Source of the DNA: Chitinophaga pinensis
Lineage (GTDB): Bacteria > Bacteroidota > Bacteroidia > NS11-12g > UBA955
Assembly: GCA_945865625.1 (NCBI GenBank)
Contig: CAMBFD010000001.1
Location: 34,559 to 98,558 of the forward strand
DNA length: 64,000 bases
Direction of reading: 5' to 3'
Positions 24,318-61,523 of this stretch are shown piece by piece. The translations under genes and the position numbers were made by a program. The number at the start of each line of letters is the position of its first letter. Position 1 is the stretch's first letter. Below the pieces are notes generated by a model. That model worked only from the letters and a program-made list of their open reading frames with translations, did not search any database and had not been told where the DNA came from.

Positions 24318-24350
24318 GGGGCGAAAAGGTAGTTTTTTTTCGCCCTTCTT
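24318..24350 (+). terminator. Rho-independent terminator after the TPR gene
   Basis: GGGCGAAAA-GGTAG-TTTTTTTTCGCCC hairpin followed by TTCTT. Confidence 0.6.
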
Positions 24351-24360
24351 ATTTATTCTG

Positions 24361-24625
24361 GATTATCTGTTTATTGGTACTCGGAGTTCACTAAACCTCA
24401 TAAAACTATTTAATGTTTAGCGTTTAGCGTTTAATGTTTAGCGTTTAATGTTTAGCGTTTAATGTTTAGCGTTTAATGTAATTTACCTGTTTACTGGTAC
24501 TTGGAGTTCACTAAACCTCCTAAACCTATTTAAAGTTTAGCGTTTAATGTTTAATGTTTAAAGTAATACTGGTACTCGGAGTTCACTAAACCTCCTAAGA
24601 GTTTATAGTAATAATGCCAAAATAG
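24361..24625. repeat. Composite tandem-repeat array: three copies of a ~34-bp block interleaved with GTTTAGCGTTTAAT tandem units
   Basis: Blocks CTGTTTATTGGTACTCGGAGTTCACTAAACCTC at 24367-24400, 24486-24520 and 24571-24600. 14-bp tandem run at 24415-24478 (about 4.5 copies) and a shorter run at 24535-24560. TATAAACC dyad at ~24630-24648. Confidence 0.75.
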
Positions 24626-24648
24626 AACCTTTATAAACCCTTATAAAC

Positions 24649-24685
24649 AAAAAAAAAGGTGCAAATTTCTTTGCACCTTTTTTTG
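24649..24685. terminator. Bidirectional Rho-independent terminator (serves the minus-strand gene 24698-25603)
   Basis: AAAAAAAAA-GGTGCAAA-TTTC-TTTGCACC-TTTTTTT. Confidence 0.6.
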
Positions 24686-26608: not shown

Positions 26609-27616
26609 TTGTCTGACCAATCGTTACACGCTCGAAAATTAGACCACATTCAGTTGGCTTTTCAATCTCAGCTTGCTGAACAAGATTCTCGTTTTTATTA
26701 CGAACCCTTATTTTCACCTTCGCCAATCACTGGCTGCATTCCTCCTTTGCAATTGGCTGGTAAAGTGTTGCGCTTCCCTTTGTGGATTAGCAGCATGACA
26801 GGCGGTGCGGAATTGGCAGGGGAAATCAATAAAAACTTGGCAATTGCTTGCAGAGAATTTGGTTTGGGAATGGGCCTTGGCTCTTGCCGACCGGTACTCG
26901 TAGATCCAGTGAATGCAAAAGATTTTGCTGTGCGCAAATTCATAGGCAATCAACCGCTATACGCCAACCTTGGAATTGCTCAAATTGAAGAATTGCTTCA
27001 AACAAATGATGAACAGAAAATTGCAGATTTGGTTGATCGGTTAGAGGCTGATGGACTTATCATCCATGTCAATCCATTGCAAGAATGGTTTCAACCCGAA
27101 GGCGATCAGTATAAAAACGCTCCTATCGATACCATAAAAAGGGTTTTGGATAAATTCCATTTTCCAATTATGGTGAAAGAGGTTGGTCAAGGATTTGGTC
27201 CTAAGTCCCTCAAAGAATTGATGAGACTTCCTTTAGAAGCAGTTGATTTTGGTGCTTTTGGAGGGACAAATTTTAGCGTTTTGGAAAACTTACGTCGCTC
27301 AGACGTAAGAACTGAATCTTGGAAATGTGCAACCCACTTAGGACATACTGCGGAGGAAATGGCGCACTGGGTTTGTGATTGGCTAAATGCCGATGAAGAA
27401 GTATTTAAATCGAAATCCATTATTGTTTCAGGTGGCATTAAAAACTTTTTGGATGGATATTATTTCTTGAAAAAAATCCCTCATAAAACAATGTATGCTC
27501 ATGCTTCATTGTTCTTAAAATATGCCCTTTTGGGAGAACAAGAACTACTCGCTTTTGTAGAAAGCCAAGTTCAGGGACTTGAAATGGCGCAAACCTATTT
27601 AACATTAAAAAAATGA
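26609..27616 (+). CDS. fni: Type 2 isopentenyl-diphosphate delta-isomerase (FMN-dependent)
   Basis: 335 aa. N-terminal RKLDHI motif and TIM-barrel Gly-rich segments (ISSMTGG, GVGG-like). Position at the head of the mevalonate operon. Confidence 0.7.
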   Translation: MSDQSLHARKLDHIQLAFQSQLAEQDSRFYYEPLFSPSPITGCIPPLQLAGKVLRFPLWISSMTGGAELAGEINKNLAIACREFGLGMGLGSCRPVLVDPVNAKDFAVRKFIGNQPLYANLGIAQIEELLQTNDEQKIADLVDRLEADGLIIHVNPLQEWFQPEGDQYKNAPIDTIKRVLDKFHFPIMVKEVGQGFGPKSLKELMRLPLEAVDFGAFGGTNFSVLENLRRSDVRTESWKCATHLGHTAEEMAHWVCDWLNADEEVFKSKSIIVSGGIKNFLDGYYFLKKIPHKTMYAHASLFLKYALLGEQELLAFVESQVQGLEMAQTYLTLKK

Positions 27617-28962
27617 TGAAAACCCAACCTGTGAAAGGATTTAGTAAATTAAGCAAGGAAGCGAAAATTGAGTGGTTAATTCAAAACTTTACCAATCAAC
27701 CAGATGAAACCATGCAAATGCTCACTGGTTATTGGCATGGGCAGCCCGAAGTTCAAAAGCTTCATGATGAATTTATTGAAAATACAATTAGTAATTTTTA
27801 CATGCCTTTTGGTGTCGCGCCAAACTTTCTAATCAACCAAAAAATGTATGCCATTCCTATGGCAATAGAAGAAAGTAGTGTCGTTGCTGCCGCTTCTAAA
27901 TCTGCTAACTTTTGGCTAGATAGAGGTGGTTTCAAATCAGAAGTCATTGGTATGGTTAAAGTTGGGCATGTTCATTTTTTATGGGAAGGAAATGAAATTG
28001 AGTGGATGTTTGATTTGTTTGAAAGCCATAAAAATTTGTTTTACGATCATACAAATGACATCACAAAGAATATGCGACTCCGTGGAGGAGGCATTTTGGA
28101 CTTGAATCTGATTGATAAAACTGAATTTGAACCGGGTTATTTTCAAATTGAAGTCAAATTTGATACCCGCGATAGTATGGGTGCAAATTTTATCAATAGT
28201 TGCCTTGAAGAAATTGCAAAAACTTGGAGAAATTTGATTGAAGAGAGTAAATCGAAAATTCAACCAGATGTAATCATTGTGATGAGCATTCTCAGTAATT
28301 TCACACCGGAATGTTTGGTTAAAGCCGAGGTTTCTTGTAAAATTGACGATATTAATGAAGGTTCGGGGATTGGGAATCTTGAGTTTGCTGAGAAATTCTG
28401 CAGGGCCATTAGAATTGCCACAGTTGAACCATATAGAGCTGTTACGCACAATAAGGGTATCATGAATGGAATTGATGCCGTGATTATGGCAACCGGTAAT
28501 GATTTTCGTGCAACTGAGGCATGTGCTCATGCTTATGCCGCAAAAAATGGAAAATATACGAGTTTGTCGCACGCTGCAATTGATGGCGATACTTTTAATT
28601 TTTGGATCGAATTGCCCATTTCAATTGGCACAGTTGGTGGAATTACCAACTTACATCCAATGGTTAAGTTCGCACATGAACTTCTTGGTTATCCCGGTGC
28701 CTCAGATTTAATGGAAATTGTTGCTGTTGCAGGATTGGCGCAAAATTTTAGCGCGGTGAGATCTTTAATTACTTCAGGAATTCAAAAAGGACACATGAAA
28801 ATGCACCTTTTGAACATTTTAAATCAATTAGAAGCGACCGATGCCGAAAAGATTGAAATTGTAAGCTATTTTAAAGATAAAGTGGTGAGCTTCAGTTCTG
28901 CTGTTGAAGTTTTCTGTAAACTTCGCGGAATTCCAGTAGAATCTTTGTCGAAATCTAAATAA
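27613..28962 (+). CDS. Hydroxymethylglutaryl-CoA reductase
   Basis: 449 aa. Motifs DSMGANFINS (DAMGxN), GTVGG and the ENxIG-like region. 4-nt overlap with fni. Confidence 0.8.
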   Translation: MMKTQPVKGFSKLSKEAKIEWLIQNFTNQPDETMQMLTGYWHGQPEVQKLHDEFIENTISNFYMPFGVAPNFLINQKMYAIPMAIEESSVVAAASKSANFWLDRGGFKSEVIGMVKVGHVHFLWEGNEIEWMFDLFESHKNLFYDHTNDITKNMRLRGGGILDLNLIDKTEFEPGYFQIEVKFDTRDSMGANFINSCLEEIAKTWRNLIEESKSKIQPDVIIVMSILSNFTPECLVKAEVSCKIDDINEGSGIGNLEFAEKFCRAIRIATVEPYRAVTHNKGIMNGIDAVIMATGNDFRATEACAHAYAAKNGKYTSLSHAAIDGDTFNFWIELPISIGTVGGITNLHPMVKFAHELLGYPGASDLMEIVAVAGLAQNFSAVRSLITSGIQKGHMKMHLLNILNQLEATDAEKIEIVSYFKDKVVSFSSAVEVFCKLRGIPVESLSKSK

Positions 28963-29897
28963 TGAAATCCTTTTACGCTCCAGGAAAAGTTTTACTGACG
29001 GGTGAATACTTAGTGCTTAATGGATTTGATGCCATTGCCTTACCCACAAATATTGGACAAACTTTGAACACTTGGGAGTTTGATACACCAGGACAACAAG
29101 AAGATTTTATGATTTTTGAAGCTAAAGATCATTTGGGGGACATTTGGCTCACAACCAGATTTTCGCTGCCCAATTTTGAAATTTTAGAAATCGATAAAAA
29201 AGAAAATCTTGAACTCGATAGACTTGCCGGGATTTTCAAAAAAGCAGATCCTGCATTTTGGAAATTAGGAAAATCTTTGCGTTTGGAAACCAATTTGCAA
29301 TTCAATCGCGTTCACGGGTTAGGAAGCAGTAGCACTTTAGTGACATTGCTTTCTGATTATATGAATCTCGATGCATTGCAAGTTCAGTTCGATATATTTA
29401 GCGGTAGCGGCTATGATGTGGCCATTGCTAAAAGTCGTAAACCTTTGGTCTATTGGTTAACTGAAACCGATTCGAATTGGAACTTTTGGTCGTTAAACCC
29501 AGAGCTTACAAAAAATTGGACGATTGTGTTTTACGGTCAAAAAATGGATTCAAGAGCAAGCATTAAAAATGTTCAAGACGCTCTCAATGAAATTGCTGAA
29601 GATGAGTTTTATACAGCGCAAATTGATCATATTCTGAATCTTACTAAATCGGCAAAAGATGTTCTCAGCTTGGAAGCAAGTTTAGAAATGTATCAAAAAA
29701 TATTGTCACAATCTCTTGAATTGCCAACCCCTTACGATGTTTTGGAAATTGAGCCAATTGCTCAAGGACTTTGCAAATGGTTGGGAGCGTGGGGTGGAGA
29801 TATGATTTTAGTTAACGATATAGTGCTAGAAGCTTACAATTCTAAATTTGAAAAATTTGAAAAAGTAGGTTGGAATCAATTGGTAATGAATCAATAA
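28962..29897 (+). CDS. GHMP-family kinase, putative phosphomevalonate kinase (divergent)
   Basis: 311 aa. N-terminal APGKVLLTGEYLVLNG resembles the MVK/PMK N-terminus. Gly/Ser-rich ATP motif HGLGSSST. Sits between HMGR and MVD. Confidence 0.45.
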   Translation: MKSFYAPGKVLLTGEYLVLNGFDAIALPTNIGQTLNTWEFDTPGQQEDFMIFEAKDHLGDIWLTTRFSLPNFEILEIDKKENLELDRLAGIFKKADPAFWKLGKSLRLETNLQFNRVHGLGSSSTLVTLLSDYMNLDALQVQFDIFSGSGYDVAIAKSRKPLVYWLTETDSNWNFWSLNPELTKNWTIVFYGQKMDSRASIKNVQDALNEIAEDEFYTAQIDHILNLTKSAKDVLSLEASLEMYQKILSQSLELPTPYDVLEIEPIAQGLCKWLGAWGGDMILVNDIVLEAYNSKFEKFEKVGWNQLVMNQ

Positions 29898-29898
29898 A

Positions 29899-30927
29899 AT
29901 GCAGAAAGTTGTAAAATATCGTTGTCCAAGCAACATTGCTTTGGTCAAATATTGGGGGAAAAAAGATGGCGGTGTTCAACTGCCAGCCAATGCAAGTATC
30001 AGTTGGTCGTTAAGTGATTTATTCGCCGAAACAACCATGATTGCCACTCCTGCAATTCAAACCCAATTGGAATTCAAATACGATGGGAATCCAAAACCGT
30101 CGTTTGAGCCCAAAATACTTGATTTTTTGAATAGAATTGCACCTTTTAGCGATTTTATAAAGCAACATTCGTTCGAGGTTGACACCATCAATAACTTTCC
30201 TCATGGAACTGGTATTGCCAGTTCTGCTGCCGGGTTTGGTGCGTTAGCGCTTTGCATTGCCGATCTCGAGGGTAAATATGAAGTTGGATCAGATGAATTT
30301 TACCAACGCGCAAGTTTCTTTGCCAGACTGGGCTCTGGAAGTGCCTGCAGAAGTGTATACAGTAAACCCGCAATTTGGGGTGAACACCCAGAGGTTGAAA
30401 ATAGTTCCGATTTATTTGCCGTTCCTTTTGAGGGACAAATTCACGAATCGCTTCAAAACTGGAATGATTGTGTATTGATTGTAGACGATGGCGAGAAAAA
30501 GGTAAGCAGTACAGCTGGTCATTCCTTGTTGAAAAACCACCCTTATGCAGAAGCCCGATTTAAGCAAGCTCAAAAAAACATCGGAAATATTTTGCAATAT
30601 ATGCAAAATGGAAATGTATCTGATTTTATCGCTTTGGTAGAATCTGAAGCTTTGCAATTGCATTCTATGATGATGTCGTCTATTCCATATTTCACCCTCA
30701 TTAGACCAGGTACTTTAGCCATATTGGAGGAAATTTGGACATTTAGAGAAGAAACAAATTTACCTATTGCTTTCACGCTTGACGCAGGCGCAAACGTTCA
30801 TTTGCTCTATTCAAATGAAATAGAGGAGCAAGTCATAAACTTTATTCATAATAAGTTGTTAGTTAACTGTAAAAAAGGTTTGTATCTTTGCAGTAGCATA
30901 GGAGGAAAGCCTCTAAAACTATCTTAA
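29899..30927 (+). CDS. mvaD: Diphosphomevalonate decarboxylase
   Basis: 342 aa. N-terminus PSNIALVKYWGKKD and GHMP motif GTGIASSAAGFGAL. Confidence 0.8.
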   Translation: MQKVVKYRCPSNIALVKYWGKKDGGVQLPANASISWSLSDLFAETTMIATPAIQTQLEFKYDGNPKPSFEPKILDFLNRIAPFSDFIKQHSFEVDTINNFPHGTGIASSAAGFGALALCIADLEGKYEVGSDEFYQRASFFARLGSGSACRSVYSKPAIWGEHPEVENSSDLFAVPFEGQIHESLQNWNDCVLIVDDGEKKVSSTAGHSLLKNHPYAEARFKQAQKNIGNILQYMQNGNVSDFIALVESEALQLHSMMMSSIPYFTLIRPGTLAILEEIWTFREETNLPIAFTLDAGANVHLLYSNEIEEQVINFIHNKLLVNCKKGLYLCSSIGGKPLKLS

Positions 30928-31868
30928 TGTTAAAAGAATCACTCTACTACGCCAAAATTTTACTATTTGGTGAATATGGAATTATCGAAGACTCAATGGG
31001 CCTAAGTATTCCATATACCTTTTTCAAAGGAAAGTTTGAGTTTGCAACAGAACCTACAGCTGTTCAATCTGATTCAAATCAAAGCATTGCCAAATTTGTT
31101 GGTCATTTGCAGGAAATGGCACTCAAAAATGAACTTCCTTGTAAGTTTAACTTTGTTAAATTAAATCAAGACATTCAAAATGGATTGTATTTCGATAGCA
31201 GTATTCCTCAAGGATTTGGGGTTGGGAGCTCTGGTGCTCTTGTTGCAGCGTTATACAATCAATATTCTACTGATCAAGTTGCTGCCGATGAAGTCATGAA
31301 AGGCGATAATTTGGCCAATTTAAAATTCATTCTTGCGAGTTTAGAATCATATTTTCACGGAAAAAGTTCTGGCTTAGATCCGCTTATTTGCTATTTGAAT
31401 TTGCCAATTCTAATCAAAGGGAAAGGCGATTTAGGTGCAGTTGGAATGCCGTCTGAAAATGTTTCAGGTAAAGGAGCTATCTTTTTAATGGATTCTGGAA
31501 GTCCCGGAAAAACGCAAGGTATGGTGGCCATATTCTTGCAGAAATTAAAAGATGAAGGGTTCAGAAATTTAGTAAGAACTCAATTAAAAAAATACAATGA
31601 TGGGGCCGTTAAATCTTTCTTGAAAGGCGAAAACAAACCATTATTTGAAAATGTAAAAGCAATTTCTTCTTTGTTTTTAGATAACTTTAAACCTATGATT
31701 CCTCAAAAATTTGAAGGTGTTTGGCGCAAAGGGTTAGAAACCAATGCCTATTATTTGAAACTTTGCGGAAGTGGTGGTGGTGGCTTTGTGTTAGGCTTTA
31801 CTCAAGACTTTGAAAAAGCAGAAAAAATGCTCGAAAGTCACAAATTACAGGTTATCTATAAGATTTAA
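30927..31868 (+). CDS. Mevalonate kinase (GHMP family)
   Basis: 313 aa. N-terminus AKILLFGEYGII. ATP motif PQGFGVGSSGALVAAL. Confidence 0.65.
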   Translation: MLKESLYYAKILLFGEYGIIEDSMGLSIPYTFFKGKFEFATEPTAVQSDSNQSIAKFVGHLQEMALKNELPCKFNFVKLNQDIQNGLYFDSSIPQGFGVGSSGALVAALYNQYSTDQVAADEVMKGDNLANLKFILASLESYFHGKSSGLDPLICYLNLPILIKGKGDLGAVGMPSENVSGKGAIFLMDSGSPGKTQGMVAIFLQKLKDEGFRNLVRTQLKKYNDGAVKSFLKGENKPLFENVKAISSLFLDNFKPMIPQKFEGVWRKGLETNAYYLKLCGSGGGGFVLGFTQDFEKAEKMLESHKLQVIYKI

Positions 31869-31869
31869 T

Positions 31870-32781
31870 ATGCCCTTATCTGGCAATCAAAAAATAATCA
31901 AATTTCTTTATTTTTTAAGTATCATTCGATGGTACAACGTTCTTCTCATGGTTTTGGGACAATATTTCTTGGCACTTTTTGTTTTTGCCCCTGATTATTC
32001 TTTCCATCAAATTGTTTTTGATAAAAAATTGCATCTCATGGTTTTATCAACCATTTTTACCCTCGCAGGAGCTTTTGTGATCAATGCATTTTATGACGCA
32101 GATAAAGATTTGGTCAACAGACCAAAATCTGCGCTTGTAGGTCGGGCAATTGGGTCAACCTTTTTGGCGAACTCCTATATTGTATTTAATTTCTTAGCGT
32201 TGTTTTTTGCATTTTTTGCAACTAAAAAAATTCTTATTTTCTACTTTTTATACATCGTAATTTGTTGGTTCTATTCTCATAAATTGCAAAAGAAACCCAT
32301 TATTAGGGAACTATCTGCCAGTCTATTAACGATGGCGCCGCTCATTGCAATTTGGATTCATTATGGCGTTTGGGATTGGAAATTGATGTATTTCTTTTGC
32401 ACTTTTTTGACCCTATTATTTACCAAAGATGTGGTGAAAGATTTAGCAGGTCATAAAGGGAATTTGATTTTTGGCTATAATACCGTTGTTGTGGCTGCTG
32501 GTAAATCGAAGGTTAAAATAGGCTTGGTTTTATTTAATATGGCTATTTTCTTGATCTTTGTTGGAATCTATTTGATACAAAAAGAGCATTTTTATAATAA
32601 TATTGATTTAATCATAGGCTCTTCTTTCACTTTAATAGCTACAATTTTGATTACGGCAATTGGTTTATCATCATGGAAGAATAAATATAAACGGATGGAT
32701 TTTATGCTTAAGTTTTTAATCACTTACCAATTGACTTTGCCTTTATTTACTTTCATCTTGAAATTTATTGCAAAGAGTTAG
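31870..32781 (+). CDS. UbiA-family aromatic/isoprenoid prenyltransferase (integral membrane)
   Basis: Start trimmed to the ATG at 31870 (MPLSGNQ...), 2 nt after the MVK stop. ~8-9 TM helices. Asp-rich NAFYDADKD motif (NDxxDxxxD-like). Confidence 0.7.
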   Translation: MPLSGNQKIIKFLYFLSIIRWYNVLLMVLGQYFLALFVFAPDYSFHQIVFDKKLHLMVLSTIFTLAGAFVINAFYDADKDLVNRPKSALVGRAIGSTFLANSYIVFNFLALFFAFFATKKILIFYFLYIVICWFYSHKLQKKPIIRELSASLLTMAPLIAIWIHYGVWDWKLMYFFCTFLTLLFTKDVVKDLAGHKGNLIFGYNTVVVAAGKSKVKIGLVLFNMAIFLIFVGIYLIQKEHFYNNIDLIIGSSFTLIATILITAIGLSSWKNKYKRMDFMLKFLITYQLTLPLFTFILKFIAKS

Positions 32782-50108: not shown

Positions 50109-52111
50109 GATGTTTGAATCATTTGTAAGAGTTCATCTTCCGATAGGAAAACAACACCCAATTGTTGTGCTTTTTCTAATTTTGAGGGACCAACACCGCT
50201 GCCTGCAATGAGGTAATTGGTTTTTGAGGTCACGCCACTTGCCATTTTTCCTCCGTTGTTTTCAACCAAGTCTTTGAGTTCGTCGCGACTATGATTTTCG
50301 AAAACCCCAGAAATCACAAAGATTTTACCTTCCAAAACATAGCTTGCTTTTTCAATTTTCTGAGCTTCGAATTGCAAATTTGCGGATTTTAATCTCTCAA
50401 TTTCTTGCAAATTACGAGGATTTTGGAAATGTTGGTGCACCGTTTGTGCAATTCGCTCTCCAATTTCATCAACCTTGAGCATTTCTTCGATGCTGGCATT
50501 CATTAAATTGTGAATGGTTAAAAATGCCGCAACCAATTTTTTGGCCACGGTTTCTCCAACATATCTTATACCAATGGCAAATAAAACCCTTTCAAAAGGT
50601 TGGTTTTTACTGATTTGTATGCCTTCAATGATGTTGTTGGCACTTTTTTCGCCCATTCGGTCTAACGCAATTAACTGTTCAAAAGTTAAGTCGTAAAAGT
50701 CGGCCGGCGAGTTTACCAAGTTGTTTTTGTAGAGCGTTTCTGCCATTTCACTGCCAATACTCTGAATGTCCATGGCCTTGCGCCCTACAAAATGTTCGAG
50801 TTTCCCAACCACTTGAGGAGGGCAGAGGAGGTCGTTGGGACAATAATGCTGGGCTTCACCTTCATTTCGAATGAGTTTGGTGTTGCATTCTGGGCAATGT
50901 GAAATATAGGCTTGAGGTTCAGAGTTTTCAGGTCTTTGGGTATAGTCGATTCCCACAATTTTAGGAATGATTTCACCCCCTTTTTCTACAAAAACCATGT
51001 CGCCGATGCGAATGTCTAAACGTTCCATTTCATTGGCATTGTGTAAGCTCGCCCGCTTCACCGTGGTTCCAAGAATGGCAACAGGTTGTAGTTCGGCTAC
51101 TGGCGTAATGGCACCCGTTCTTCCAACTTGGTACTTAATATCGAGCAGTGTTGTGGTGGCCGTTTCCGTTTGAAATTTATAAGCAATGGCCCAACGTGGG
51201 GTTTTTGCGGTGAACCCAAGTTCTTCTTGGAGGTTTTTGTTGTTTACTTTTATCACCACTCCATCGGTGTCGAACGACAAATCGTGCCGTTTTGCATCCC
51301 AAACGTTTAAAAACGCGAGTACACTGTCAATGCCATTGCAAACTTTTGAGGTTTCAGCAATTTTAATTCCCCAGCTTGCTGCTGCATTGAGCGACTCAGA
51401 ATGGGTGGCAAAAAGTCCCTCATCCTCTAATAAATAATATAAATAAATGTCGAGCGGACGTTTGGCAACCTCATTGGGGTCTTTGATTTTGAGGGATCCC
51501 GAAGCCACGTTTCTTGGGTTGGCGTATTCGGCTTCATTGTTGGCCCTTCTCATGTCATTGAGCTTTTCGAAACCTTTGCGATGCATGAAAATTTCACCAC
51601 GCATTTCGAATTTCTGAGGGAAATTTCCTGAGAGTTGGTGTTTTAGGCTTCGAATGGTTTTTACGTTGGTGGTTACATCGTCGCCTTGAATGCCATCGCC
51701 ACGGGTAATGGCTTGCACGAGTTTTCCATTTTCAAAAAATAAAGAAATGGCCAACCCGTCAATTTTAAGTTCGCATACATATTCAATGTCTGCGAGTCCT
51801 GTCGATTTACGAATGCGTTCATCGAAATCTCTCAGCTCTTGCTCGTTGTAAGTATTTGCCAGCGACAACATTGGCCGTTGGTGTTTCACGGTGATAAATC
51901 CATCGGAAACGTTTCCACCTACTTTTTGGGTAGGACTATCCGGTGAAATAAATTGTGGAAATTGAGCTTCGAGATGGGTCAATTCGTTGAGTAATTGATC
52001 GAATTCAAAGTCAGAAATTGCAGGTTCAGCAAGCACATAATACCGGTAATTATGGTCTTTGAGGAGCGTAGTTAGTTGTTCAATGCGGAGTTTTGCATTT
52101 GCCAATTCCAT
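50105..52111 (-). CDS. ligA: NAD-dependent DNA ligase
   Basis: 668 aa. Adenylation KxDG motif (CELKIDGLAIS), Zn-finger Cys cluster, HhH and C-terminal BRCT. Confidence 0.95.
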   Translation of the reverse strand: MELANAKLRIEQLTTLLKDHNYRYYVLAEPAISDFEFDQLLNELTHLEAQFPQFISPDSPTQKVGGNVSDGFITVKHQRPMLSLANTYNEQELRDFDERIRKSTGLADIEYVCELKIDGLAISLFFENGKLVQAITRGDGIQGDDVTTNVKTIRSLKHQLSGNFPQKFEMRGEIFMHRKGFEKLNDMRRANNEAEYANPRNVASGSLKIKDPNEVAKRPLDIYLYYLLEDEGLFATHSESLNAAASWGIKIAETSKVCNGIDSVLAFLNVWDAKRHDLSFDTDGVVIKVNNKNLQEELGFTAKTPRWAIAYKFQTETATTTLLDIKYQVGRTGAITPVAELQPVAILGTTVKRASLHNANEMERLDIRIGDMVFVEKGGEIIPKIVGIDYTQRPENSEPQAYISHCPECNTKLIRNEGEAQHYCPNDLLCPPQVVGKLEHFVGRKAMDIQSIGSEMAETLYKNNLVNSPADFYDLTFEQLIALDRMGEKSANNIIEGIQISKNQPFERVLFAIGIRYVGETVAKKLVAAFLTIHNLMNASIEEMLKVDEIGERIAQTVHQHFQNPRNLQEIERLKSANLQFEAQKIEKASYVLEGKIFVISGVFENHSRDELKDLVENNGGKMASGVTSKTNYLIAGSGVGPSKLEKAQQLGVVFLSEDELLQMIQTS

Positions 52112-52245
52112 AGGTCAACGAAACTACAAAAAAATCTTTGGGAGAGTCGATTTTTGATTACTCAAAATGGTTTGAGTTATACACAATTCATGTCATTTAT
52201 TAAACAATTGATAATTTATTAACAGATAAATATGTTTTTTGAATC

Positions 52246-52752
52246 ATGGAATCTCAAAAAATCGCCCCAAACAGAGTGGTTAGTTTAAGCTATTCTCTGT
52301 CGTTAACAAACGGACAAATTGCAGACGAAGCTACTGCTGAACAACCACTAGTGTTTATTCACGGTGTTGGTCAAACCTTACCTGAATTCGATGCGCGCAT
52401 AGAAGGACTGAGTGTAGGAGAAGGATTTTCTTTCACTTTAACTGCTGAACAAGGATATGGAGAATCTGACGAACGTTGGATTATCGAATTGCAAAAATCA
52501 ATTTTTGAAGGACCGGATGTGCCTGCAGACATTTTGCAAATAGGAGCACTTTTACCAATGCAAGACCAAGATGGCAATCCAATGGATGGCAAATTAGTTG
52601 AAATTGGCGACGAAACTGTGAAGTTAGACTTCAACCACCCGTTGGCTGGCGAAGCTTTACATTTCACTGGTAAAGTTGAATCTGTAAGAGAAGCAACTTC
52701 CGACGAATTGGACCATGGCCACGTTCATGGTGAAGGCGGGCATCAACATTAA
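52246..52752 (+). CDS. slyD: FKBP-type peptidyl-prolyl cis-trans isomerase, SlyD-like, with His-rich C-terminus
   Basis: 168 aa. FKBP fold with inserted IF-like flap. C-terminal HGHVHGEGGHQH metal-binding tail. Confidence 0.75.
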   Translation: MESQKIAPNRVVSLSYSLSLTNGQIADEATAEQPLVFIHGVGQTLPEFDARIEGLSVGEGFSFTLTAEQGYGESDERWIIELQKSIFEGPDVPADILQIGALLPMQDQDGNPMDGKLVEIGDETVKLDFNHPLAGEALHFTGKVESVREATSDELDHGHVHGEGGHQH

Positions 52753-52865
52753 GCCATAAACGATTAAACGGTTAAACGGTTAGGAGGATTAGAAGGATTA
52801 AACGGTTAGAAGGATTAGAAGCAATCTAATAATCCTATAATCTTATAATCCTATAATCTGTCCAA
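52753..52865. repeat. Composite intergenic short-tandem-repeat element (TAAACGxTTAAACGG units, GGATTAGAAG/GGTTAGAAG units, TATAATCC units)
   Basis: AAACGATTAAACGGTTAAACGG; then GGTTAGGAGGATTAGAAGGATTAAACGGTTAGAAGGATTAGAAG; then CCTATAATCTTATAATCCTATAATC. Lies between convergent slyD and the dnaE-family gene. Confidence 0.65.
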
Positions 52866-55800
52866 TTAAATTCTTGGATCTAATTGGATTCCCAACTTTT
52901 CCATCTGAGTCACCTCAATGTTAAATACCCCGAAGTCTGCGGTGATTTGTCCCCAAATGCGATAAACACCGCGGCCTTTGAAAGGGTAGCGCGATACAAT
53001 CTGTGGGAAGTGAATGCTATCAAAGAAATATCCATCGCGGTCTACCCATGTTCCAAAGTTCATTTCCTTGCCCCCAATTGTCTTTGTGGGCTTTACCGTG
53101 ACCAAATATCCCTCAAGCATCACCGATTTGTGAAGCAGTTTGCCCAAATCTCTCGCCCTTAACTTGGATCCTTCATCGGGCTCACTGGTTAGGGTAAACG
53201 GACTGCAAAGTGGAAACCCCAAGAATTCCCTTTGATCTATGGCAATTTCTAACCACGAGTCTTCTAATGGCGGTAATTCGTATGTTTTCGGTTGTTCTGT
53301 GAACAATTTTGCGGAAATTATTTCCTGTTTTTTTTGCGAATAATACGAATGTGCCTCCCATAAAAGTGCCCGTCTCGACTTTTCTGTGTATCTGAATGCC
53401 CCAATTTGGATTAAGATTTTTAACTGCTCTAAGCCAGGTTCTACCCGTGTTTTGAAATCATATAAACTTTCAAATGCACCTTCTTTTTGCGCCGCGAAAA
53501 TTCTTTCTGCACACCTTTGCTCTAGTCCTTGTATGAGTCCCAACCCCAGCCAAATCGTTTTCCCCTCAATTTTTGTGAGAAATTTGCTGTGGTTTGCACA
53601 AGGTGCTTGCACGTCGGCGCCGCACATTCGGGCAGCGTGAACATAAAATTCGGTGCGGTAAAAACCTCCGAAATTGTTAATCACCGCCACGTAAAATTCG
53701 AGCGGATAATAGGCTTTCAAATGCAAACTCTGGTAACTCTCCACCGCGTAACTCGCACTATGTCCCTTCGCAAAACTATATCCTGCAAAACTTTCAATTT
53801 GCTTCCACACTTCAACAATGAGTTGGTGTGAATGTCCCTTCTCCCTGGCTTTTTCATAAAATTGTTGCTGAACTTTCAGAAATTCTGCCTTGCTCCTAAA
53901 TTTCCCGCTCATGCCACGTCTTAAAACATCGCTTTCAGCAAGTCCTAAGCCCGCAAAATGATGGGCCACGCGAATCACATCTTCCTGATACACCATGATT
54001 CCATACGTTTCGGGCATAATTTCTTGTAAAATTGGGTGGGCTTCCGTGCGCTTCCTTACATCGATATGCCTTTCAATGAATGTTCGCATCATGCCACTTC
54101 TGGCAACCCCCGGACGTATCACACTGCTGGCCGCCACCAACGTGAGGTAGTCTCGGCATTTGAGTTTTCGCAACAATTGTCGCATGGCAGGACTTTCTAC
54201 ATAAAAGCAGCCCATGGTAAATCCAGTTTCAATAATTCTGGCAATTTTTGGGTCGTTTTTAAACGTTTGAATTTGGTGTGGATCTACATCAATGCCTTGA
54301 TTTTCTTTGATATAGATTACGGCATCTTTGATGTGCCCAAGTCCTCGTTGACTTAAAATATCGAACTTTGCAAGTCCTAAATCTTCAGCTTCAAGCATGC
54401 TAAATTGCACGGTGGGGAATCCTTTTGGAGGCATTTCCAACGCCGAATAATGGTAGATGCTTTTTTCGGAAATGAGAATTCCCCCCACATGAATGCTCCG
54501 ATAATTTGGCAGATTGTGAATTTTTCGGGCATGTTTTAACAAAGTTGCATACAGCGACTCTTTGCTTTCGAGAGTATTTTCTGAATTTGCAGCGGTTTTG
54601 GGCTTCCATTCTCTATTTCTAAGTCCAATTCCCGGAGTGCTATAGATAGAATCGCTGTTGGTTGAAAATTCCTCAAAGTTGGCATCTCCATAATAGGTTG
54701 GCCGTTCGAGTAAATTGTCGATTTCGGCCTTTGGTAAGCCATACACTTTGCCGAGTTCTCTCACCACGGCATTGCTCTGAAAGGTGTTGTAAGTGCCAAC
54801 CAATGCAGCATGGTGCGGGCCGTATTTCTCCATGATGTAAGCGGTAACCTGATCGCGGTCTTGCCATGAAAAATCGAGGTCGAAGTCGGGCGGACTACTT
54901 CTGTAAGGATTGATAAACCGTTCGAAATACAAATCGAGGTCAATGGGGTCAACATCGGTAATTTTCAGGCAATAGGCCACCATGCTATTGGCGCCGCTCC
55001 CTCGTCCTACATGAAAAAATCTTTGCTCTTCGGCAAATCGGCAAATGTCCCAGTTGATTAAAAAATAAGATGTAAATCCCAGTTCATAAATGAGTTGCAT
55101 TTCTTTTTCTAGGCGCTTCGTGGTTTCGTAGGTGTAATTTGGATAGCGGTATTTAAGTCCCTCAAAAGCCAACTCCCTTAACATTCTATAGTCTTGGTCG
55201 ACATTTTGTGTAAACGTTTTTTTATTCTGAGGGACATTGAAGTCGAAGCTCCAATGTGGTTGATTGACAATCGATTGTGCGTTTTGTAATAGTATGGGAG
55301 TGTCTAAAAACTCATTGACAATGCTGGCAATGTCTTCAAATAGATCGTATTTAGAGGCGGTGCAATTGGGTTTAAGTTTTGTGAGGAGGCAATTGTGTTG
55401 GATGCAACGCAAGAGGGTGTGGGTGTGGAGGTCGTCGATATTTCTGAGGGTGGCTTTGTGGTATGCAATGAGTCGCTTTGCCGAATTTTTCCACGGCGAC
55501 AATCTGAGTTTCCTCAATTGTTGTTTTGTGATGCCAATGAGGGCATGTGAAGGGATGTCTTTGTGCGAGAGTCCAATGACCTTATGGAAGGGGTAGATGC
55601 AGGTTACGTGTTCGAGTTTTGGCGCCAAAATGGGGAAGGGGAGGTTTTGCATCAAAAATTCTGATAAAAACTGGTTGATATTGGCAAATCCGGCATGCGA
55701 ATTTGCAATGAGAAGGTAGAGGGATTCGTCGTTATTTTTAATTTCCACGCCAACTAGCGGAACAACATTTGGATATTTTTTGGCTTCTTTTAGAAAGTTG

Positions 55801-55949: not shown

Positions 55950-55984
55950 TTTGATAATATTATTGACAATTAATTGGCAACAAT

Positions 55985-56109
55985 ATACGCAAAAAATCCA
56001 AAATGGTTAGAAAGATTAGAAAGATTAGAAGATCAAAAATCCAATACGCCTATAAACTTATAAACCAATAAGCCAGTAGGCTGAAGTAATTAAGTATTAA
56101 ACATTAAAT
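55985..56109. repeat. Composite intergenic short-tandem-repeat element (GGTTAGAAAGATTAGAAAGATTAGAAG; TATAAACTTATAAACC; TAAACATTAAAT)
   Basis: Core at 56005-56066. Same three sub-motifs as 52753-52865. Lies between the divergent dnaE-family and DCC genes. Confidence 0.65.
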
Positions 56110-56481: not shown

Positions 56482-56575
56482 GAAATTTAATGCTTAAAGT
56501 TTAGTGCTTAATGTTGGTTCAAAGTTTAATATAAACCGTCCACTAATCCCTCTAACCATTCTAACCCCCTAATCC
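56482..56575. repeat. Composite intergenic short-tandem-repeat element in inverted orientation (AATGCTTAAAGTTTAGTGCTTAATG; TATAAACC; CTAATCC/CTAACC units)
   Basis: The reverse complement GGATTAGGGGGTTAGAATGGTTAGAGGGATTAG matches the GGTTAGAAG/GGATTAGAAG arrays at 52781-52824 and 56005-56031. Overlaps the stop codon of the efflux adaptor gene. Confidence 0.65.
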
Positions 56576-59348: not shown

Positions 59349-59409
59349 TTTGTGGAAAACATGTCAGTTGCAATGTTAAACAATAATTTATTTTTGTATC
59401 GGTGTTTAG

Positions 59410-59600
59410 GTTTTCGAAGGGTAATGGCTTACTCTAAGAAATGAAAAGGGAACATCGGTGTAAGACCGAGACTGTACCCGCAGCTGTAACCCCCATCTGA
59501 AAAGATGTAATTTTAGGCTTCTATGCCACTGTGTAAACGGGAAGGCGCCTAAAATGGGGAAGTCAGAAGACCTGCCTACGGCATCACAAAAACTCGCTTT
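59410..59600 (+). ncRNA. Cobalamin (adenosylcobalamin) riboswitch
   Basis: Conserved core AAAAGGGAACATCGGTGTAAGACCGA...CCCGCAGCTGTAACC...GCCACTGTG...GGGAAGGCGCC...GTCAGAAGACCTGCC. Matches the B12-box and flanking consensus in order and spacing. Immediately upstream of the btuB-like gene. Confidence 0.8.
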
Positions 59601-59675
59601 CGGGAATAAAAGCGCGGTGGTGATTTGCTCGTGGGCAATTTATCTCCCTTTTATTTGCGTTGGCGATACCCAATT

Positions 59676-61523
59676 ATGTTGTTGAACATTGGACATATCG
59701 CTTCTCTCTTTTGCGCCTTCGGCGACACCGTGCAAAATTTGCCTGTCGATACCGTCTATATCCAAGCTCAACGCATTGAATTTTGTCAGTTGGGACGCGT
59801 GAAACTCGATTTTCAAAATTCAACATCCCCACAAACCCTTCAAAATAACCTCGCTGCAAATGCAGTTTTTTTCAAGCAATACGGGGTTTCTGGGTCGTCT
59901 ACAATTTCTAGACGAGGGGCCGATGCCGCCCAAACGCAGGTGTTATGGAATGGACTGCCCGTGAACAACCCTATGCTCGGGATGGCAGATTTTAACAACC
60001 TCACTGCCTTTGGTTTGCAAGAAGTCTTTCTCATTGAAGGTGGGAATGCCGCACTTTTAGGTTCAGGCAGTGTGGGTGGAACCGTGTTTTTAAGAAATAA
60101 AGTAAAATATGGTGAAGGATTCAACGCCAATCTAACTTCGCAGTACGGCCAATTTGGCAATCTTTCACTGGGTTTAAATTTAATTCAATCTGCTAAAAAT
60201 CATTATTTTCAATTTACGTTTGGACAACTAAACTATCAAAATAAATTTACCTTTTTTGATGTTCTCAATCAAGAAAATAAAATTGCGCAAAATGCAAATC
60301 TTTTTCAAACAATTGGTAGGGTCGTTTATGGATTTAAGCAGGGTAACCACGACTTAAAATTGGTGGTTGAGTATGCAAATAATGAACGTGGACTTGGACA
60401 AAAGGCGGGTGGAAATCAATTGAATGGCTTACAAAAGGATTTAAACTTACGCAGTGTTTTAGAGCATCAATACAATCAAGGAAAGTATTTATGGGTGAAT
60501 CGATTAGGTTTTGTGAGAGACCAAATTAAATATTACGAAGATATTTTGAATGCCGATTCAAGTGTTGCAAGTACGCCTTATTTTCAAACTGAATTTTATA
60601 AAAATATTGGTGCTTTCAGGTGGCTCATTGGTTTCGACGCACAACAGCAAAGAGCGTTTTCAGTGAATTACATTCAAGTGAACCCAAGTCGATTCTACGC
60701 TGCTTCGTTTGCTTCGGTGACGTTTAAACTGAAACAAGCCGATTTTAATTTGAATGCACGGCATGAATTTTACGAAAATATTCCAACTTTTGGAATTTCA
60801 TCGGTGGTGCCAGTTAAAAAGTGGTTTCAAATTAAATCGAACATTCATTCAACTTTTAGAAGACCAACCTTAAACGATTTATTCTGGAGAACAAACGCTA
60901 CAGAAATTGCAAAATCTGAAAAAGGATGGGGAGTAGAACTCGGATTGTTGAAAAACATTCAATCTACTTTTGTTGATGCAACGTTTGAATTAACATCGTA
61001 TTACAGGGAATTAAAAGATCCAATTATTTGGATTCCGAATGGGGTTTCTTGGATTGCAACAAATTTTCACAATGGCCAATATGCTGGGATCCAATTTAAT
61101 GGGAAGGTGTCTAAAGGGTATCACAATCAAAAAATAGCATTCAATTTTGGTGGAGAATGGGTGAACTCTCACGTAAAAAAAGGCATTGAACAGCCGGGGT
61201 ATGCGCAAATTTTCATTCCCGATTTTATGGGGTTTGTGGGTGTGATTTTAGATCGTAAATTGTTATCGTACAAAATAGATATTCAGCACACCGGCAATCG
61301 ATACATTCAAACCGACAACTTGGCTTGGATGCCTGGATATAGAATTGTGAATTGCCAAGTTTCAATGAAGCAGTGGCAGTTTACGTCCCTCAAAAATCAC
61401 AAAAAAGTAAAATGTGAAGCTTCTGTTGAATGCCGAAATATGCTCAATACAAATTACCAAAATATGCCGAGTAGACCCATGCCAGGAAGGTCGTTTTGGC
61501 TGAATTTAAACATCTTAATATAA
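59676..61523 (+). CDS. btuB: TonB-dependent outer-membrane receptor, BtuB-like (cobalamin uptake)
   Basis: Start set to the ATG at 59676 (MLLNIGHIASLF signal peptide); the ORF-track start at 59625 is a TTG inside the riboswitch platform. Plug-domain region DTVYIQAQRIE and beta-barrel. Riboswitch context. Confidence 0.7.
   Translation: MLLNIGHIASLFCAFGDTVQNLPVDTVYIQAQRIEFCQLGRVKLDFQNSTSPQTLQNNLAANAVFFKQYGVSGSSTISRRGADAAQTQVLWNGLPVNNPMLGMADFNNLTAFGLQEVFLIEGGNAALLGSGSVGGTVFLRNKVKYGEGFNANLTSQYGQFGNLSLGLNLIQSAKNHYFQFTFGQLNYQNKFTFFDVLNQENKIAQNANLFQTIGRVVYGFKQGNHDLKLVVEYANNERGLGQKAGGNQLNGLQKDLNLRSVLEHQYNQGKYLWVNRLGFVRDQIKYYEDILNADSSVASTPYFQTEFYKNIGAFRWLIGFDAQQQRAFSVNYIQVNPSRFYAASFASVTFKLKQADFNLNARHEFYENIPTFGISSVVPVKKWFQIKSNIHSTFRRPTLNDLFWRTNATEIAKSEKGWGVELGLLKNIQSTFVDATFELTSYYRELKDPIIWIPNGVSWIATNFHNGQYAGIQFNGKVSKGYHNQKIAFNFGGEWVNSHVKKGIEQPGYAQIFIPDFMGFVGVILDRKLLSYKIDIQHTGNRYIQTDNLAWMPGYRIVNCQVSMKQWQFTSLKNHKKVKCEASVECRNMLNTNYQNMPSRPMPGRSFWLNLNILI

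What the first reader, a model, noticed from the sequence alone, without database searches (positions are those of the whole stretch)
24361..24648. Composite tandem-repeat array between two terminators in a convergent intergenic gap
A ~34-bp block (CTGTTTATTGGTACTCGGAGTTCACTAAACCTC) occurs three times in the 406-bp gap between the TPR gene and the next minus-strand gene: 24367-24400, 24486-24520 and 24571-24600. Each copy is followed by runs of a 14-bp unit GTTTAGCGTTTAAT (about 4.5 contiguous copies at 24415-24478, a shorter degenerate run at 24535-24560). The array ends in a TATAAACCCTTATAAAC dyad. It sits between a terminator for the + strand (24318-24350) and a bidirectional terminator (24649-24685). 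It is non-coding, with stops in all frames. The layout suggests a REP/BIME-like extragenic element or a VNTR, possibly transcribed as the 3' UTR of the TPR gene.
Basis: seen in the sequence. Interest (0 to 1): 0.6.

Follow-up and report, generated by a model that had tools for sequence, protein, structure and literature searches.

The report
Hypervariable tandem repeat between two terminators
The repeats are real: a non-coding, fast-changing tandem-repeat array (a VNTR) sits in the dead space between the terminators of two converging genes of an uncultured freshwater Flavobacteriales bacterium. It is a local example of the poorly understood short-unit intergenic repeats known from cyanobacteria and some Bacteroidetes, not a REP/BIME-type mobile element.

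Summary
**Observation: confirmed.** A 25-33 nt block occurs three times (24367, 24487, 24568). The first two copies are followed by runs of 7-nt units GTTTAGC/GTTTAAT (9 and 4 units). The whole is three copies of one higher-order unit, lying between an intrinsic terminator (24318-24346) and a bidirectional one (24651-24684).

**What it is not.** It has no coding potential, no Rfam match, no internal Bacteroidetes-type promoter box and no fold better than shuffled sequence.

**Variation between strains.** Contigs 99.1-99.7% identical in about 9 kb of flanking genes, with no indels there, carry gap alleles of 211, 357, 378, 381 and 406 nt. These alleles have 1-3 blocks and 2, 5 or 9 heptamers in the first run.

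**Turnover in relatives.**
- Strains at 97% identity carry a different array of about 13-15 GATTRTAR octamers.
- Lineages at 85% identity carry 14-15-nt units.
- One at 74% has only the two terminators, back to back.

**Dispersal.** The block was found nowhere else. The unit types (TAAAC-type, GGATTA-type) do recur in other gaps of the window.

**Verdict.** This is a composite VNTR made by slippage and unequal recombination, and it belongs to a lineage-wide, STRR-like class of arrays. The VNTR reading is supported. The REP/BIME and 3'-UTR readings are not. It is a new member of a known kind, of modest interest.

The parts
24318..24356 (+). T1: intrinsic terminator of the TPR gene (12-pair hairpin 24318-24346, then a T-rich tail)
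   Evidence: A hairpin plus T-run at the same place in L011, L012, L013 and L014, with different stem sequences and compensatory changes.
24367..24399 (+). Block A1 (CTGTTTATTGGTACTCGGAGTTCACTAAACCTC)
   Evidence: (D3).
24400..24414 (+). Linker ATAAAACTATTTAAT between block A1 and its heptamer run. Its counterpart in unit 2 is CTAAACCTATTTAAA at 24520-24534.
   Evidence: (D2/D3).
24415..24477 (+).
   Evidence: The number of units differs between strains: 2, 5, 5 and 9.
24487..24519 (+). Block A2 (CTGTTTACTGGTACTTGGAGTTCACTAAACCTC), preceded by the lead-in GTAATTTAC at 24478-24486
24535..24562 (+). Heptamer run 2: GTTTAGC GTTTAAT GTTTAAT GTTTAAA
   Evidence: (D1).
24568..24594 (+). Block A3. 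It lacks about 10 nt of the 5' lead-in; strain L010 has the full-length form.
24595..24625 (+). Degenerate end of the third higher-order unit (CTAAGA, GTTTATA, GTAATAATG) followed by unique spacer
   Evidence: D5, 24601-24616, is 88% identical to 24556-24571. The same sequence directly follows the only block in the 211-nt allele L008.
24626..24648 (+). TATAAAC(C) 10-nt direct repeat and small dyad abutting the A-tract of T2
   Evidence: YATAAAC or YATAAGC repeats precede T2 in most of the relatives examined (L011, L012, L042-L049, L051, L052), but not in L013, L014 or L050.
24651..24684 (.). T2: bidirectional intrinsic terminator (15-nt perfect arms, A-tract and T-tract). It serves the 301-aa gene on the minus strand.
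   Evidence: (I1). An equivalent hairpin is present in every relative.

Best explanation
**What it is.** The feature is a composite minisatellite (VNTR). One higher-order unit consists of a lead-in, a 33-nt block, a 15-nt linker and a nested 7-nt microsatellite (GTTTAGC/GTTTAAT). It is present three times, with 9, 4 and 1 heptamers.

**Where it lies.** It sits in the spacer between the intrinsic terminators of two converging genes, so it is probably transcribed little or not at all.

**How it changes.** Heptamers change by replication slippage. Whole units change by unequal recombination or deletion between blocks. Over slightly longer times the content of the gap is replaced altogether.

**Its wider class.** It is one instance of a lineage-wide tendency of these Flavobacteriales to carry arrays of 7-10-nt units (TAAAC-type and GGATTA-type) in 3' intergenic gaps. 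This resembles cyanobacterial STRR heptamers.

**Function.** My best guess is that this particular array has no sequence-specific function and is tolerated because the two terminators insulate it.

**Shown:** the anatomy, the non-coding nature, the strain polymorphism, the turnover in relatives, the uniqueness of the block, and the sharing of unit types between loci.

**Inferred:** slippage and recombination as the mechanism, the lack of transcription, and the lack of function.
For: **Anatomy.**

**Polymorphism against stable flanks.** Gap alleles are 211, 357, 378, 381 and 406 nt. The roughly 9 kb of flanking genes is 99.1-99.7% identical without a single indel; L010's short TPR piece (814 nt) is 97.5%.

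**The alleles are not artefacts.**
- The 357-nt allele was recovered in two independent assemblies (an NCBI MAG and an ENA k141 contig).
- The 406-nt allele is present in the window and in L002, which differ by one SNP.
- Length differences are multiples of 7 (406 to 378 is 28; 378 to 357 is 21) or are whole units.

**Turnover in relatives**:

| Lineage | nt identity | Content of the gap |
|---|---|---|
| L051, L052 | 97% | 11-12 contiguous GATTRTAR octamers (96 and 88 nt; about 13-15 with degenerate units by my own count), no block |
| L011 | 93% | two diverged blocks plus heptamers plus CATAAACCT repeats |
| L042-L049 | 85% | 14-15-nt units in 1 to about 4 copies |
| L012 | 78% | GGATTATA x3 and a 10-nt ATAAAC repeat x7 |
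| L013 | 76% | unique sequence |
| L014 | 74% | T1 and T2 back to back |

**Local origin of the heptamer.** Relatives have a single-copy ACGTTTAATGTTAG just after T1. This is one base from the 14-mer CGTTTAATGTTTAG.

**Nothing points to another role.**
- No known RNA family matches.
- No tRNA is present.
- No TAnnTTTG promoter box lies in the gap.
- No ORF lies in the array.
- The modules fold no better than shuffles.

**Shared unit types between loci**:
- GATTATAGGATTATAAGATTATA (23 nt) is identical between the SlyD-gap array of the window (52835-52858, minus strand) and the TPR-gap array of L051.
- CGTTTAA is the core of both the target heptamers and the TTAAACG(R) octamers at 52757-52779.
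- 10-nt ATAAAC arrays occur in both gaps.

**Literature.**
- Heptamers are the commonest long simple-sequence repeat in prokaryotes, which has been ascribed to polymerase slippage (Mrazek 2007, as summarised in PMC4679880).
- Assemblages of heptamer repeats occur in intergenic regions of the Flavobacteriales Gramella, Aequorivita and Elizabethkingia and are absent from close relatives (PMC4679880).
- STRR are 7-bp repeats of unknown function that can form hairpins (PMC2670836).
Against: - The genome is very compact: intergenic DNA is 2.5 kb of 63.8 kb. This gap alone is 16% of it, and a purely neutral insert should be lost quickly under a deletion bias.
- Some kind of array is present in this gap in most lineages down to 78% identity.
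- All three convergent gaps of 80 nt or more in the window hold such arrays.
- The 3' half of the block is better kept between the window and L011 than neutral sites: 5 mismatches in 48 nt, against 23.5% divergence at four-fold degenerate sites. This comparison was post hoc and took the best of several pairings.
- The same units at unlinked loci are not explained by purely local slippage.
- All alleles come from short-read metagenome assemblies. Two scaffolds have N-gaps exactly here.
Confidence: 0.6

Rival explanations
1. The array is a functional cis-element of the convergent gap. It could be a protein-binding array (a nucleoid protein or gyrase, as for BIMEs). It could be a back-up termination or insulation element: the minus-strand transcript of the heptamers is C-rich, G-poor and unstructured, like a Rho-loading site. 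Or it could be a hairpin-forming array of the STRR type that stabilises 3' ends.
For: - Arrays of related units fill convergent gaps that lack canonical terminators. The 52753-52865 gap folds into a long imperfect hairpin (-30 kcal/mol, z -3.8), and no terminator was found there.
- Arrays persist in this gap across lineages in a genome with only 3.9% intergenic DNA.
- Heptamer run 1 read on the minus strand has C 15 and G 5 of 65 nt, with no predicted structure.
- Part of the block is somewhat conserved.
- YATAAAC repeats are always present next to T2.
Against: - Here two good terminators already flank the array.
- Unit type, length and even presence differ between strains of one species, and lineages with nothing (L014) or with unique sequence (L013) exist. 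No particular sequence is therefore required.
- The modules have no significant fold.
- No binding protein is known, and nothing could be tested here.
Confidence: 0.2
2. The array is a REP/BIME-like or MITE-like dispersed mobile extragenic element. On this view the block would be one of many genomic copies, mobilised by a RAYT or transposase.
For: - The location is extragenic, at the 3' ends of convergent genes.
- The block is a weak imperfect palindrome (GTTTACTG ... CACTAAAC, read).
- Related short units recur in other gaps.
Against: - The block is absent from the rest of the window and from about 20 kb of extra genome.
- It gave 0 hits in GTDB representative genomes with the window-type pattern. 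That pattern would miss the L011-type variant.
- Only chance hits were found in JGI metagenomes and IMG/VR.
- No stable hairpin forms.
- There are no terminal inverted repeats or target-site duplication; the best candidate is 12 nt at 83% (I5).
- No transposase or Y1 gene appears among the neighbours annotated.
- All copies are head to tail at one locus.
Confidence: 0.05
3. The region encodes a small RNA, or is a functional extended 3' UTR of the TPR gene that ends at T2.
For: - It lies directly upstream of a strong terminator that also works on the + strand.
- The whole gap folds better than shuffles (z -3.7 and -5.1).
Against: - Those z-scores come from the two terminator hairpins. The array modules alone give z from -2.1 to +0.7.
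- There is no Rfam family above threshold. All weak hits sit on T2.
- No Bacteroidetes -7 box lies in the gap.
- T1 precedes the array and is conserved.
- The sequence is replaced wholesale in 97%-identical strains.
Confidence: 0.07
4. The array, or its apparent polymorphism, is an artefact of short-read metagenome assembly.
For: - Scaffolds L001 and L003 have N-gaps inside the array.
- The 211-nt allele could in principle be a collapse between block copies.
- Many contigs stop near here.
Against: - Identical alleles were recovered by independent assemblies and assemblers (L004 and L006; the window and L002, apart from single SNPs).
- Blocks are told apart by SNPs, and the runs are shorter than a read.
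- The Logan contigs all stop exactly 44 nt after the stop codon. That is at the perfect T2 palindrome, not in the array.
- Orthologous arrays appear in different projects and lakes.
Confidence: 0.03

Closest known systems
VNTR / minisatellite with a nested microsatellite; 'long simple sequence repeats' with 5-11-nt units (Mrazek et al. 2007, as summarised in PMC4679880)
   Same: - Head-to-tail copies in non-coding DNA.
- Copy-number polymorphism between close strains.
- A heptamer unit, which is the commonest class.
- Slippage as the accepted mechanism.
   Different: - Here the array has two levels: a 75-120-nt unit that contains a 7-nt run.
- The whole content of the gap is exchanged between strains of one species, not only the copy number.
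Cyanobacterial STRR (short tandemly repeated repetitive, 7-bp) sequences, and the heptamer-repeat assemblages of Beggiatoaceae and some Bacteroidetes including Gramella, Aequorivita and Elizabethkingia (PMC4679880; PMC2670836)
   Same: - Tandem 7-nt units in intergenic DNA.
- Several unit types are mixed in one gap.
- The same unit types recur at different loci.
- The arrays are absent from the same gap in close relatives.
- They can be arranged so as to form hairpins.
- Their function is unknown.
   Different: - The units differ: GTTTAGC/GTTTAAT, TTAAACGR, GATTRTAR, TTAGAAGGA and YATAAACCYT, rather than TAACTGA, CCCCAGT and the like.
- Units of 8-10 nt are as common as heptamers.
- The TAACTGA sets of the orange Guaymas 'Maribeggiatoa' genome (BOGUAY) lie mostly just upstream of start codons, whereas these arrays lie at 3' ends.
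- Genome-wide abundance is not known here.
- The 33-nt block has no STRR counterpart.
REP/BIME elements of enterobacteria
   Same: - Extragenic position, often between convergent genes and after stop codons.
- A composite, mosaic organisation of a few motif types.
   Different: - There is no stable GC-rich imperfect palindrome.
- The block is not dispersed.
- Copies are direct tandem copies, not alternating inverted copies.
- No RAYT was seen.
- Binding of IHF, gyrase or Pol I could not be tested.

Membership tests
VNTR / minisatellite | Head-to-tail tandem copies of a unit | tested here: met
   89-nt copies 85% identical, 120 nt apart; three blocks; period-7/14 runs.
VNTR / minisatellite | Copy number differs between closely related strains while the flanks are stable | tested here: met
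   alleles of 211, 357, 378, 381 and 406 nt. Flanking genes are 99.1-99.7% identical with 0 indels in about 9 kb; L010's short TPR piece (814 nt) is 97.5%.
STRR-like short-unit intergenic arrays | Tandem units of about 7 nt in intergenic DNA | tested here: met
STRR-like short-unit intergenic arrays | The same unit recurs as arrays at many loci of the genome | tested here: inconclusive
   GTTTAGC/GTTTAAT arrays were seen only at this locus, plus a degenerate 14-mer x2 at 56486-56515. Related units (the CGTTTAA core, GATTRTAR, ATAAAC 10-mers, TTAGAAGGA) occur at 2-3 loci each. Only about 84 kb of the genome could be examined.
REP/BIME | Imperfect palindrome of about 35 nt that forms a stable stem-loop | tested here: not met
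   the modules have z from -2.1 to +0.7 against shuffles. The best pairing inside a block is 4-5 A-T-rich pairs.
REP/BIME | Hundreds of dispersed copies per genome | tested here: not met
   no other copy in the window, in about 20 kb of extra genome, or in the public collections scanned. Caveats: there is no complete genome of the species, and the genome scan used the window-type pattern only.
REP/BIME | Associated RAYT (Y1 transposase); binding of IHF, gyrase or Pol I | not testable with these tools
   No Y1 or transposase Pfam family appears among the neighbours listed. Binding needs experiments.
MITE | Terminal inverted repeats, a target-site duplication and multiple copies | tested here: not met
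   the only flanking inverted repeat is 12 nt at 83%. The empty site in L014 shows no duplication. The element is single-locus.
CRISPR array | Identical repeats separated by unique spacers, with cas genes nearby | tested here: not met
   The 'spacers' are themselves heptamer runs. No cas families appear among the neighbours.
Known structured RNA (Rfam) or tRNA-derived element | Match to a covariance model at its gathering score | tested here: not met
   only sub-threshold hits, all on the T2 hairpin; no tRNA.

The most novel reading that the evidence does not exclude
The arrays may not be passive slippage products. They could be the output or the substrate of an active, lineage-specific process. 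That process would install a small vocabulary of 7-10-nt units (TAAAC-type and GGATTA-type), often as inverted pairs of arrays that form hairpins, in the 3' gaps of a streamlined Flavobacteriales genome. It would exchange them wholesale between strains 97% or more identical. On this reading the arrays are modular terminator or insulator elements, or binding arrays, and would be a Bacteroidota counterpart of STRR whose function could be worked out.
Probability: 0.12. Interest if true: 0.65.

Novelty: new member of a known kind. Interest (0 to 1): 0.33.

Why it matters
**Practical use.**
- The locus is a ready-made strain marker (VNTR) for an abundant uncultured freshwater Flavobacteriales population.
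- It is also a place where metagenome assemblies break or collapse.

**Biological question.** A genome with under 4% intergenic DNA keeps, and keeps remaking, several hundred bases of short-unit repeats in its convergent gaps. The same unit types appear at unlinked loci. This is the same unexplained behaviour as cyanobacterial STRR heptamers, whose function has been open since 1990 (my own knowledge). If the arrays prove functional, as termination, insulation or protein-binding elements, they would be a second, independent system in which to study it. As it stands, the specific finding is an ordinary hypervariable repeat.

Tried and rejected
**Known RNA families.** Rfam at gathering and at E up to 10 gave only terminator look-alikes on T2.

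**tRNA or tmRNA.** None found.

**Small ORFs.** None lie in the array. A GTG mini-ORF (MNSEYQ) after an AGGAGG on the minus strand of each block was read by eye. I dismissed it: the gap lies at the 3' ends of both genes, the peptide is 6-11 aa, and I recall that Bacteroidota make little use of Shine-Dalgarno sites.

**Internal promoter.** There is no TAnnTTTG box. The single sigma-70-like hit at 24582-24609 is within chance.

**RNA structure of the modules.** Not better than shuffles. The significant z-scores for the whole gap are due to T1 and T2.

**Dispersal of the block.**
- Genome scan with the window-type pattern: 0 hits.
- Metagenome scan with a degenerate pattern: 7 hits, all in unrelated GC-rich coding DNA.
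- IMG/VR: the same chance hits, and none for the heptamer 28-mer.

**Constraint on the block.** Divergence from L011 is 10% against 23.5% at four-fold sites. I treat this as suggestive only, because it was post hoc and the best of several pairings.

**Pentamer enrichment.** TAAAC is 3.4 times more frequent in the other intergenic DNA than in coding DNA. I do not use this as evidence, because stop-containing words are depleted in genes anyway.

**Contig ends as evidence of heterogeneity.** Rejected. The Logan contigs all stop 44 nt after the stop codon, at the T2 palindrome.

**CRISPR, MITE and dif-site readings.** Rejected on anatomy.

Full report
**1.

- The 25-mer TGGTACTCGGAGTTCACTAAACCTC occurs at 24375, 24495 (one mismatch) and 24570 on the + strand and nowhere else in the 64-kb window. 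No shuffle produced a match.
- Tandem Repeats Finder reports GTTTAGCGTTTAAT as 4.1 perfect copies at 24422-24479. It also reports a period-7 array of 8.7 copies from 24415, a second run at 24529-24564, and a 10-nt repeat at 24626-24648.
- The 14-mer is really a pair of heptamers, GTTTAGC and GTTTAAT. There are nine at 24415-24477 and four at 24535-24562.
- The repeat finder shows that 24352-24440 and 24472-24560 are 85% identical over 89 nt.
- After the third block, a degenerate copy of the end of the unit follows (24601-24616 against 24556-24571, 88%).
- The array is therefore three copies of one higher-order unit: lead-in, block, 15-nt linker, heptamers. The three copies carry 9, 4 and 1 heptamers.
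- Both terminators are found by the scan: 24318-24346 on +, and 24651-24684 on both strands with perfect 15-nt arms.

**2. Context**

- The organism is an uncultured freshwater Flavobacteriales bacterium. The nearest species-representative genome is a Lake Erken MAG, and near-identical contigs come from lake metagenomes and from MAG GCA_945907155.1.
- The genome is compact: 2.5 kb of intergenic DNA in 63.8 kb. The 406-nt gap is the longest in the window and holds 16% of that DNA.
- The gap separates a 1009-aa TPR protein gene (+, ends 24291) from a 301-aa DUF8428/DUF8429 gene (-, ends 24698).
- T1 begins 27 nt after the TPR stop codon. T1 and T2 hairpins with their T-runs are present in all lineages examined except L050, which has T2 but no T1 and no TPR end next to it. 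Their stem sequences differ and show compensatory changes.
- In the most distant relative (L014, 74% nt identity) the two terminators stand back to back. Everything between them in the window is therefore an insertion into a spacer that is probably not transcribed.

**3. What it is not**

- No ORF of 20 aa or more lies in the array.
- Both strands carry TAA or TAG in every heptamer, so a run of three units stops all three frames. This follows directly from the sequence.
- No Rfam family reaches its threshold. All weak hits lie on T2.
- No tRNA-like element is present.
- No Bacteroidetes -7 box (TAnnTTTG) lies on either strand.
- The good fold scores for the whole gap (z -3.7 and -5.1) come from the terminators. 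The three modules folded alone give z from -2.1 to +0.7 on either strand. The block is thus not a REP-like hairpin.

**4. It varies between strains**

- Ten contigs that encode the identical 301-aa protein were fetched. Seven of them have the gap fully sequenced; two more (L001, L003) have runs of N inside the array.
- Their gaps are 211, 357 (twice), 378, 381 and 406 nt.
- The first heptamer run has 2, 5, 5 (a different order) or 9 units.
- The third block is full-length in one strain.
- One allele has a single block, followed directly by the tail that follows block 3 in the window.
- About 9 kb of flanking coding DNA is 99.1-99.7% identical without one indel; L010's short TPR piece (814 nt) is 97.5%.
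- Two alleles were recovered independently (L004 and L006; the window and L002, apart from single SNPs). This argues against artefacts, although two scaffolds have runs of N exactly here.
- The Logan contigs all end 44 nt past the stop codon. That is the T2 palindrome, not the array, so contig ends should not be read as heterogeneity.

**5. Deeper comparison shows turnover, not conservation**

| Lineage | nt identity in the 301-aa gene | Content of the gap |
|---|---|---|
| L051, L052 (same species) | 97.1% | no block; 11-12 contiguous octamers GATTATAG / GATTATAA / GATTGTAA (about 13-15 with degenerate units) |
| L011 | 92.7% | two diverged blocks with short heptamer runs, plus CATAAACCT-type repeats on both sides |
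| L042-L049 | 85% | mostly unique insert with a 14-15-nt unit in 1 to about 4 copies |
| L012 | 78% | GGATTATA x3 and seven 10-nt YATAAACNTT units |
| L013 | 76% | unique sequence |
| L014 | 74% | nothing between the terminators |

- The block's distribution (window clade and L011, but not the 97% strains) does not follow the similarity of the flanks.
- This fits the mosaic, recombining flanks seen at a second locus, with 0-22 mismatches per 200 nt.
- Relatives carry a single-copy ACGTTTAATGTTAG just after T1. It is one base from the 14-mer, which points to a local origin of the heptamers.

**6. Family question**

- The block is unique to this locus in everything I could search:
  - the window;
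  - about 20 kb more of the same genome and all fetched relatives;
  - GTDB representative genomes, with the window-type pattern only;
  - JGI metagenome contigs and IMG/VR with a degenerate pattern, which gave chance hits in GC-rich coding DNA.
- The short units are not unique. The convergent gap 52753-52865 is filled by TTAAACG(R), TTAGAAGGA and, on the other strand, GATTATAG/GATTATAA units.
- That gap varies from 98 to 139 nt between strains. One strain holds GGTTTATRAG 10-mers instead.
- A 23-nt string is identical between that array and the octamer array of L051 at the TPR gap.
- CGTTTAA is shared by the target heptamers and the TTAAACG(R) octamers.
- Smaller arrays lie at 55950-56109 and 56482-56568. 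They are length-stable in the two other strains available.
- A Vicingaceae MAG has TGATATC x6.9 starting at the stop codon of the homologous gene.
- The target is therefore one member of a lineage-wide class of short-unit arrays that favour 3' gaps. The 33-nt block looks like ordinary spacer sequence caught up in a higher-order duplication.

**7. Comparison with what is known**

- Heptamers are the commonest long simple-sequence repeat in prokaryotes, ascribed to polymerase slippage (Mrazek et al. 2007, as summarised in PMC4679880).
- That paper describes assemblages of several heptamer repeats in intergenic regions of the Flavobacteriales Gramella forsetii, Aequorivita sublithincola and Elizabethkingia anophelis. 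They are absent from the same gaps in close relatives.
- Cyanobacterial STRR are 7-bp tandem repeats that can form hairpins and whose function is unknown (PMC2670836).
- The present array fits this kind and also fits the definition of a VNTR.
- It fails the defining tests for REP/BIME (stable palindrome, dispersal), MITE, CRISPR and any Rfam family.

**8. Mechanism**

- Most likely (0.6): slippage of the heptamers, unequal recombination or deletion between blocks, and occasional replacement by recombination with diverged alleles. All of this happens in a spacer insulated by two terminators, with no sequence-specific function for this array.
- The perfect 34-nt T2 palindrome may itself promote breakage and template switching. 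This is inference only.
- Main rival (0.2): the arrays are functional in convergent gaps, as hairpins, protein-binding arrays or Rho-loading stretches. Points in its favour:
  - they persist in a genome under strong size constraint;
  - in two other gaps they take the place of canonical terminators.
- Points against it: strains of one species differ in unit type and length, and some lineages carry no array.

**9. Verdict**

- The VNTR reading is supported. The REP/BIME and 3'-UTR readings are not.
- It is a new member of a known, poorly understood kind.
- Interest is modest at 0.33. That score is raised a little by the wholesale exchange of arrays between 97%-identical strains and by the sharing of units between loci.

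Noticed in passing
window 52753-52865: The convergent gap between an FKBP-type (SlyD-like) gene and a 1027-aa gene is filled entirely by TTAAACG(R), TTAGAAGGA and, on the other strand, GATTATAG/GATTATAA units. They fold into one long imperfect hairpin (-30 kcal/mol, z -3.8), and no canonical terminator is present. The gap is 98-139 nt in other strains, and one strain (L024) has a completely different GGTTTATRAG array.
   Followed up: partly
window 55950-56109 and 56482-56568: Two further small arrays: TTAGAAAGA x2.7 with TATAAAC repeats in a divergent gap, and TTTAATGCTTAAAG x2.1 with CTAATCC/CTAACC repeats in a convergent gap. Both have the same length in the two other strains seen.
   Followed up: partly
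L051 2107-2202 and L052 2249-2369 (the TPR/301-aa gap of strains 97% identical to the window): About 13-15 octamers (GATTATAG / GATTATAA / GATTGTAA) stand where the window has the block-plus-heptamer array. A 23-nt string is identical to the array at window 52835-52858, which is an unlinked locus.
   Followed up: partly
L015 6452-6505 (Vicingaceae MAG): A heptamer array TGATATC x6.9 starts at the stop codon of a distant homologue (31% identity) of the 301-aa gene, again in a convergent gap.
   Followed up: no
L050 2107-2273: In one 97.5%-identical strain, T2 is followed by unrelated unique sequence and a different long gene, with no T1 and no TPR gene end. This is either a structural variant or a scaffold chimera.
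   Followed up: no
window 59391-59593 (+): A cobalamin riboswitch (86.9 bits, E 5e-20) lies upstream of a gene for a Plug-domain protein (presumably a TonB-dependent receptor) at 59625-61523.
   Followed up: no
window 26609-32781: A mevalonate-pathway cluster (HMG-CoA reductase, diphosphomevalonate decarboxylase, a GHMP kinase, a UbiA prenyltransferase) lies just downstream of the 301-aa gene.
   Followed up: no
L024-L026 against window 50750-54900: Divergence from the window is patchy, at 0-22 mismatches per 200 nt. This indicates a recombining, mosaic population and could explain wholesale exchange of arrays.
   Followed up: partly
L053-L059: Seven independent Logan contigs all end exactly 44 nt after the stop codon of the 301-aa gene, at the perfect T2 palindrome. 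This is an assembly break caused by the inverted repeat, not by the tandem array.
   Followed up: yes
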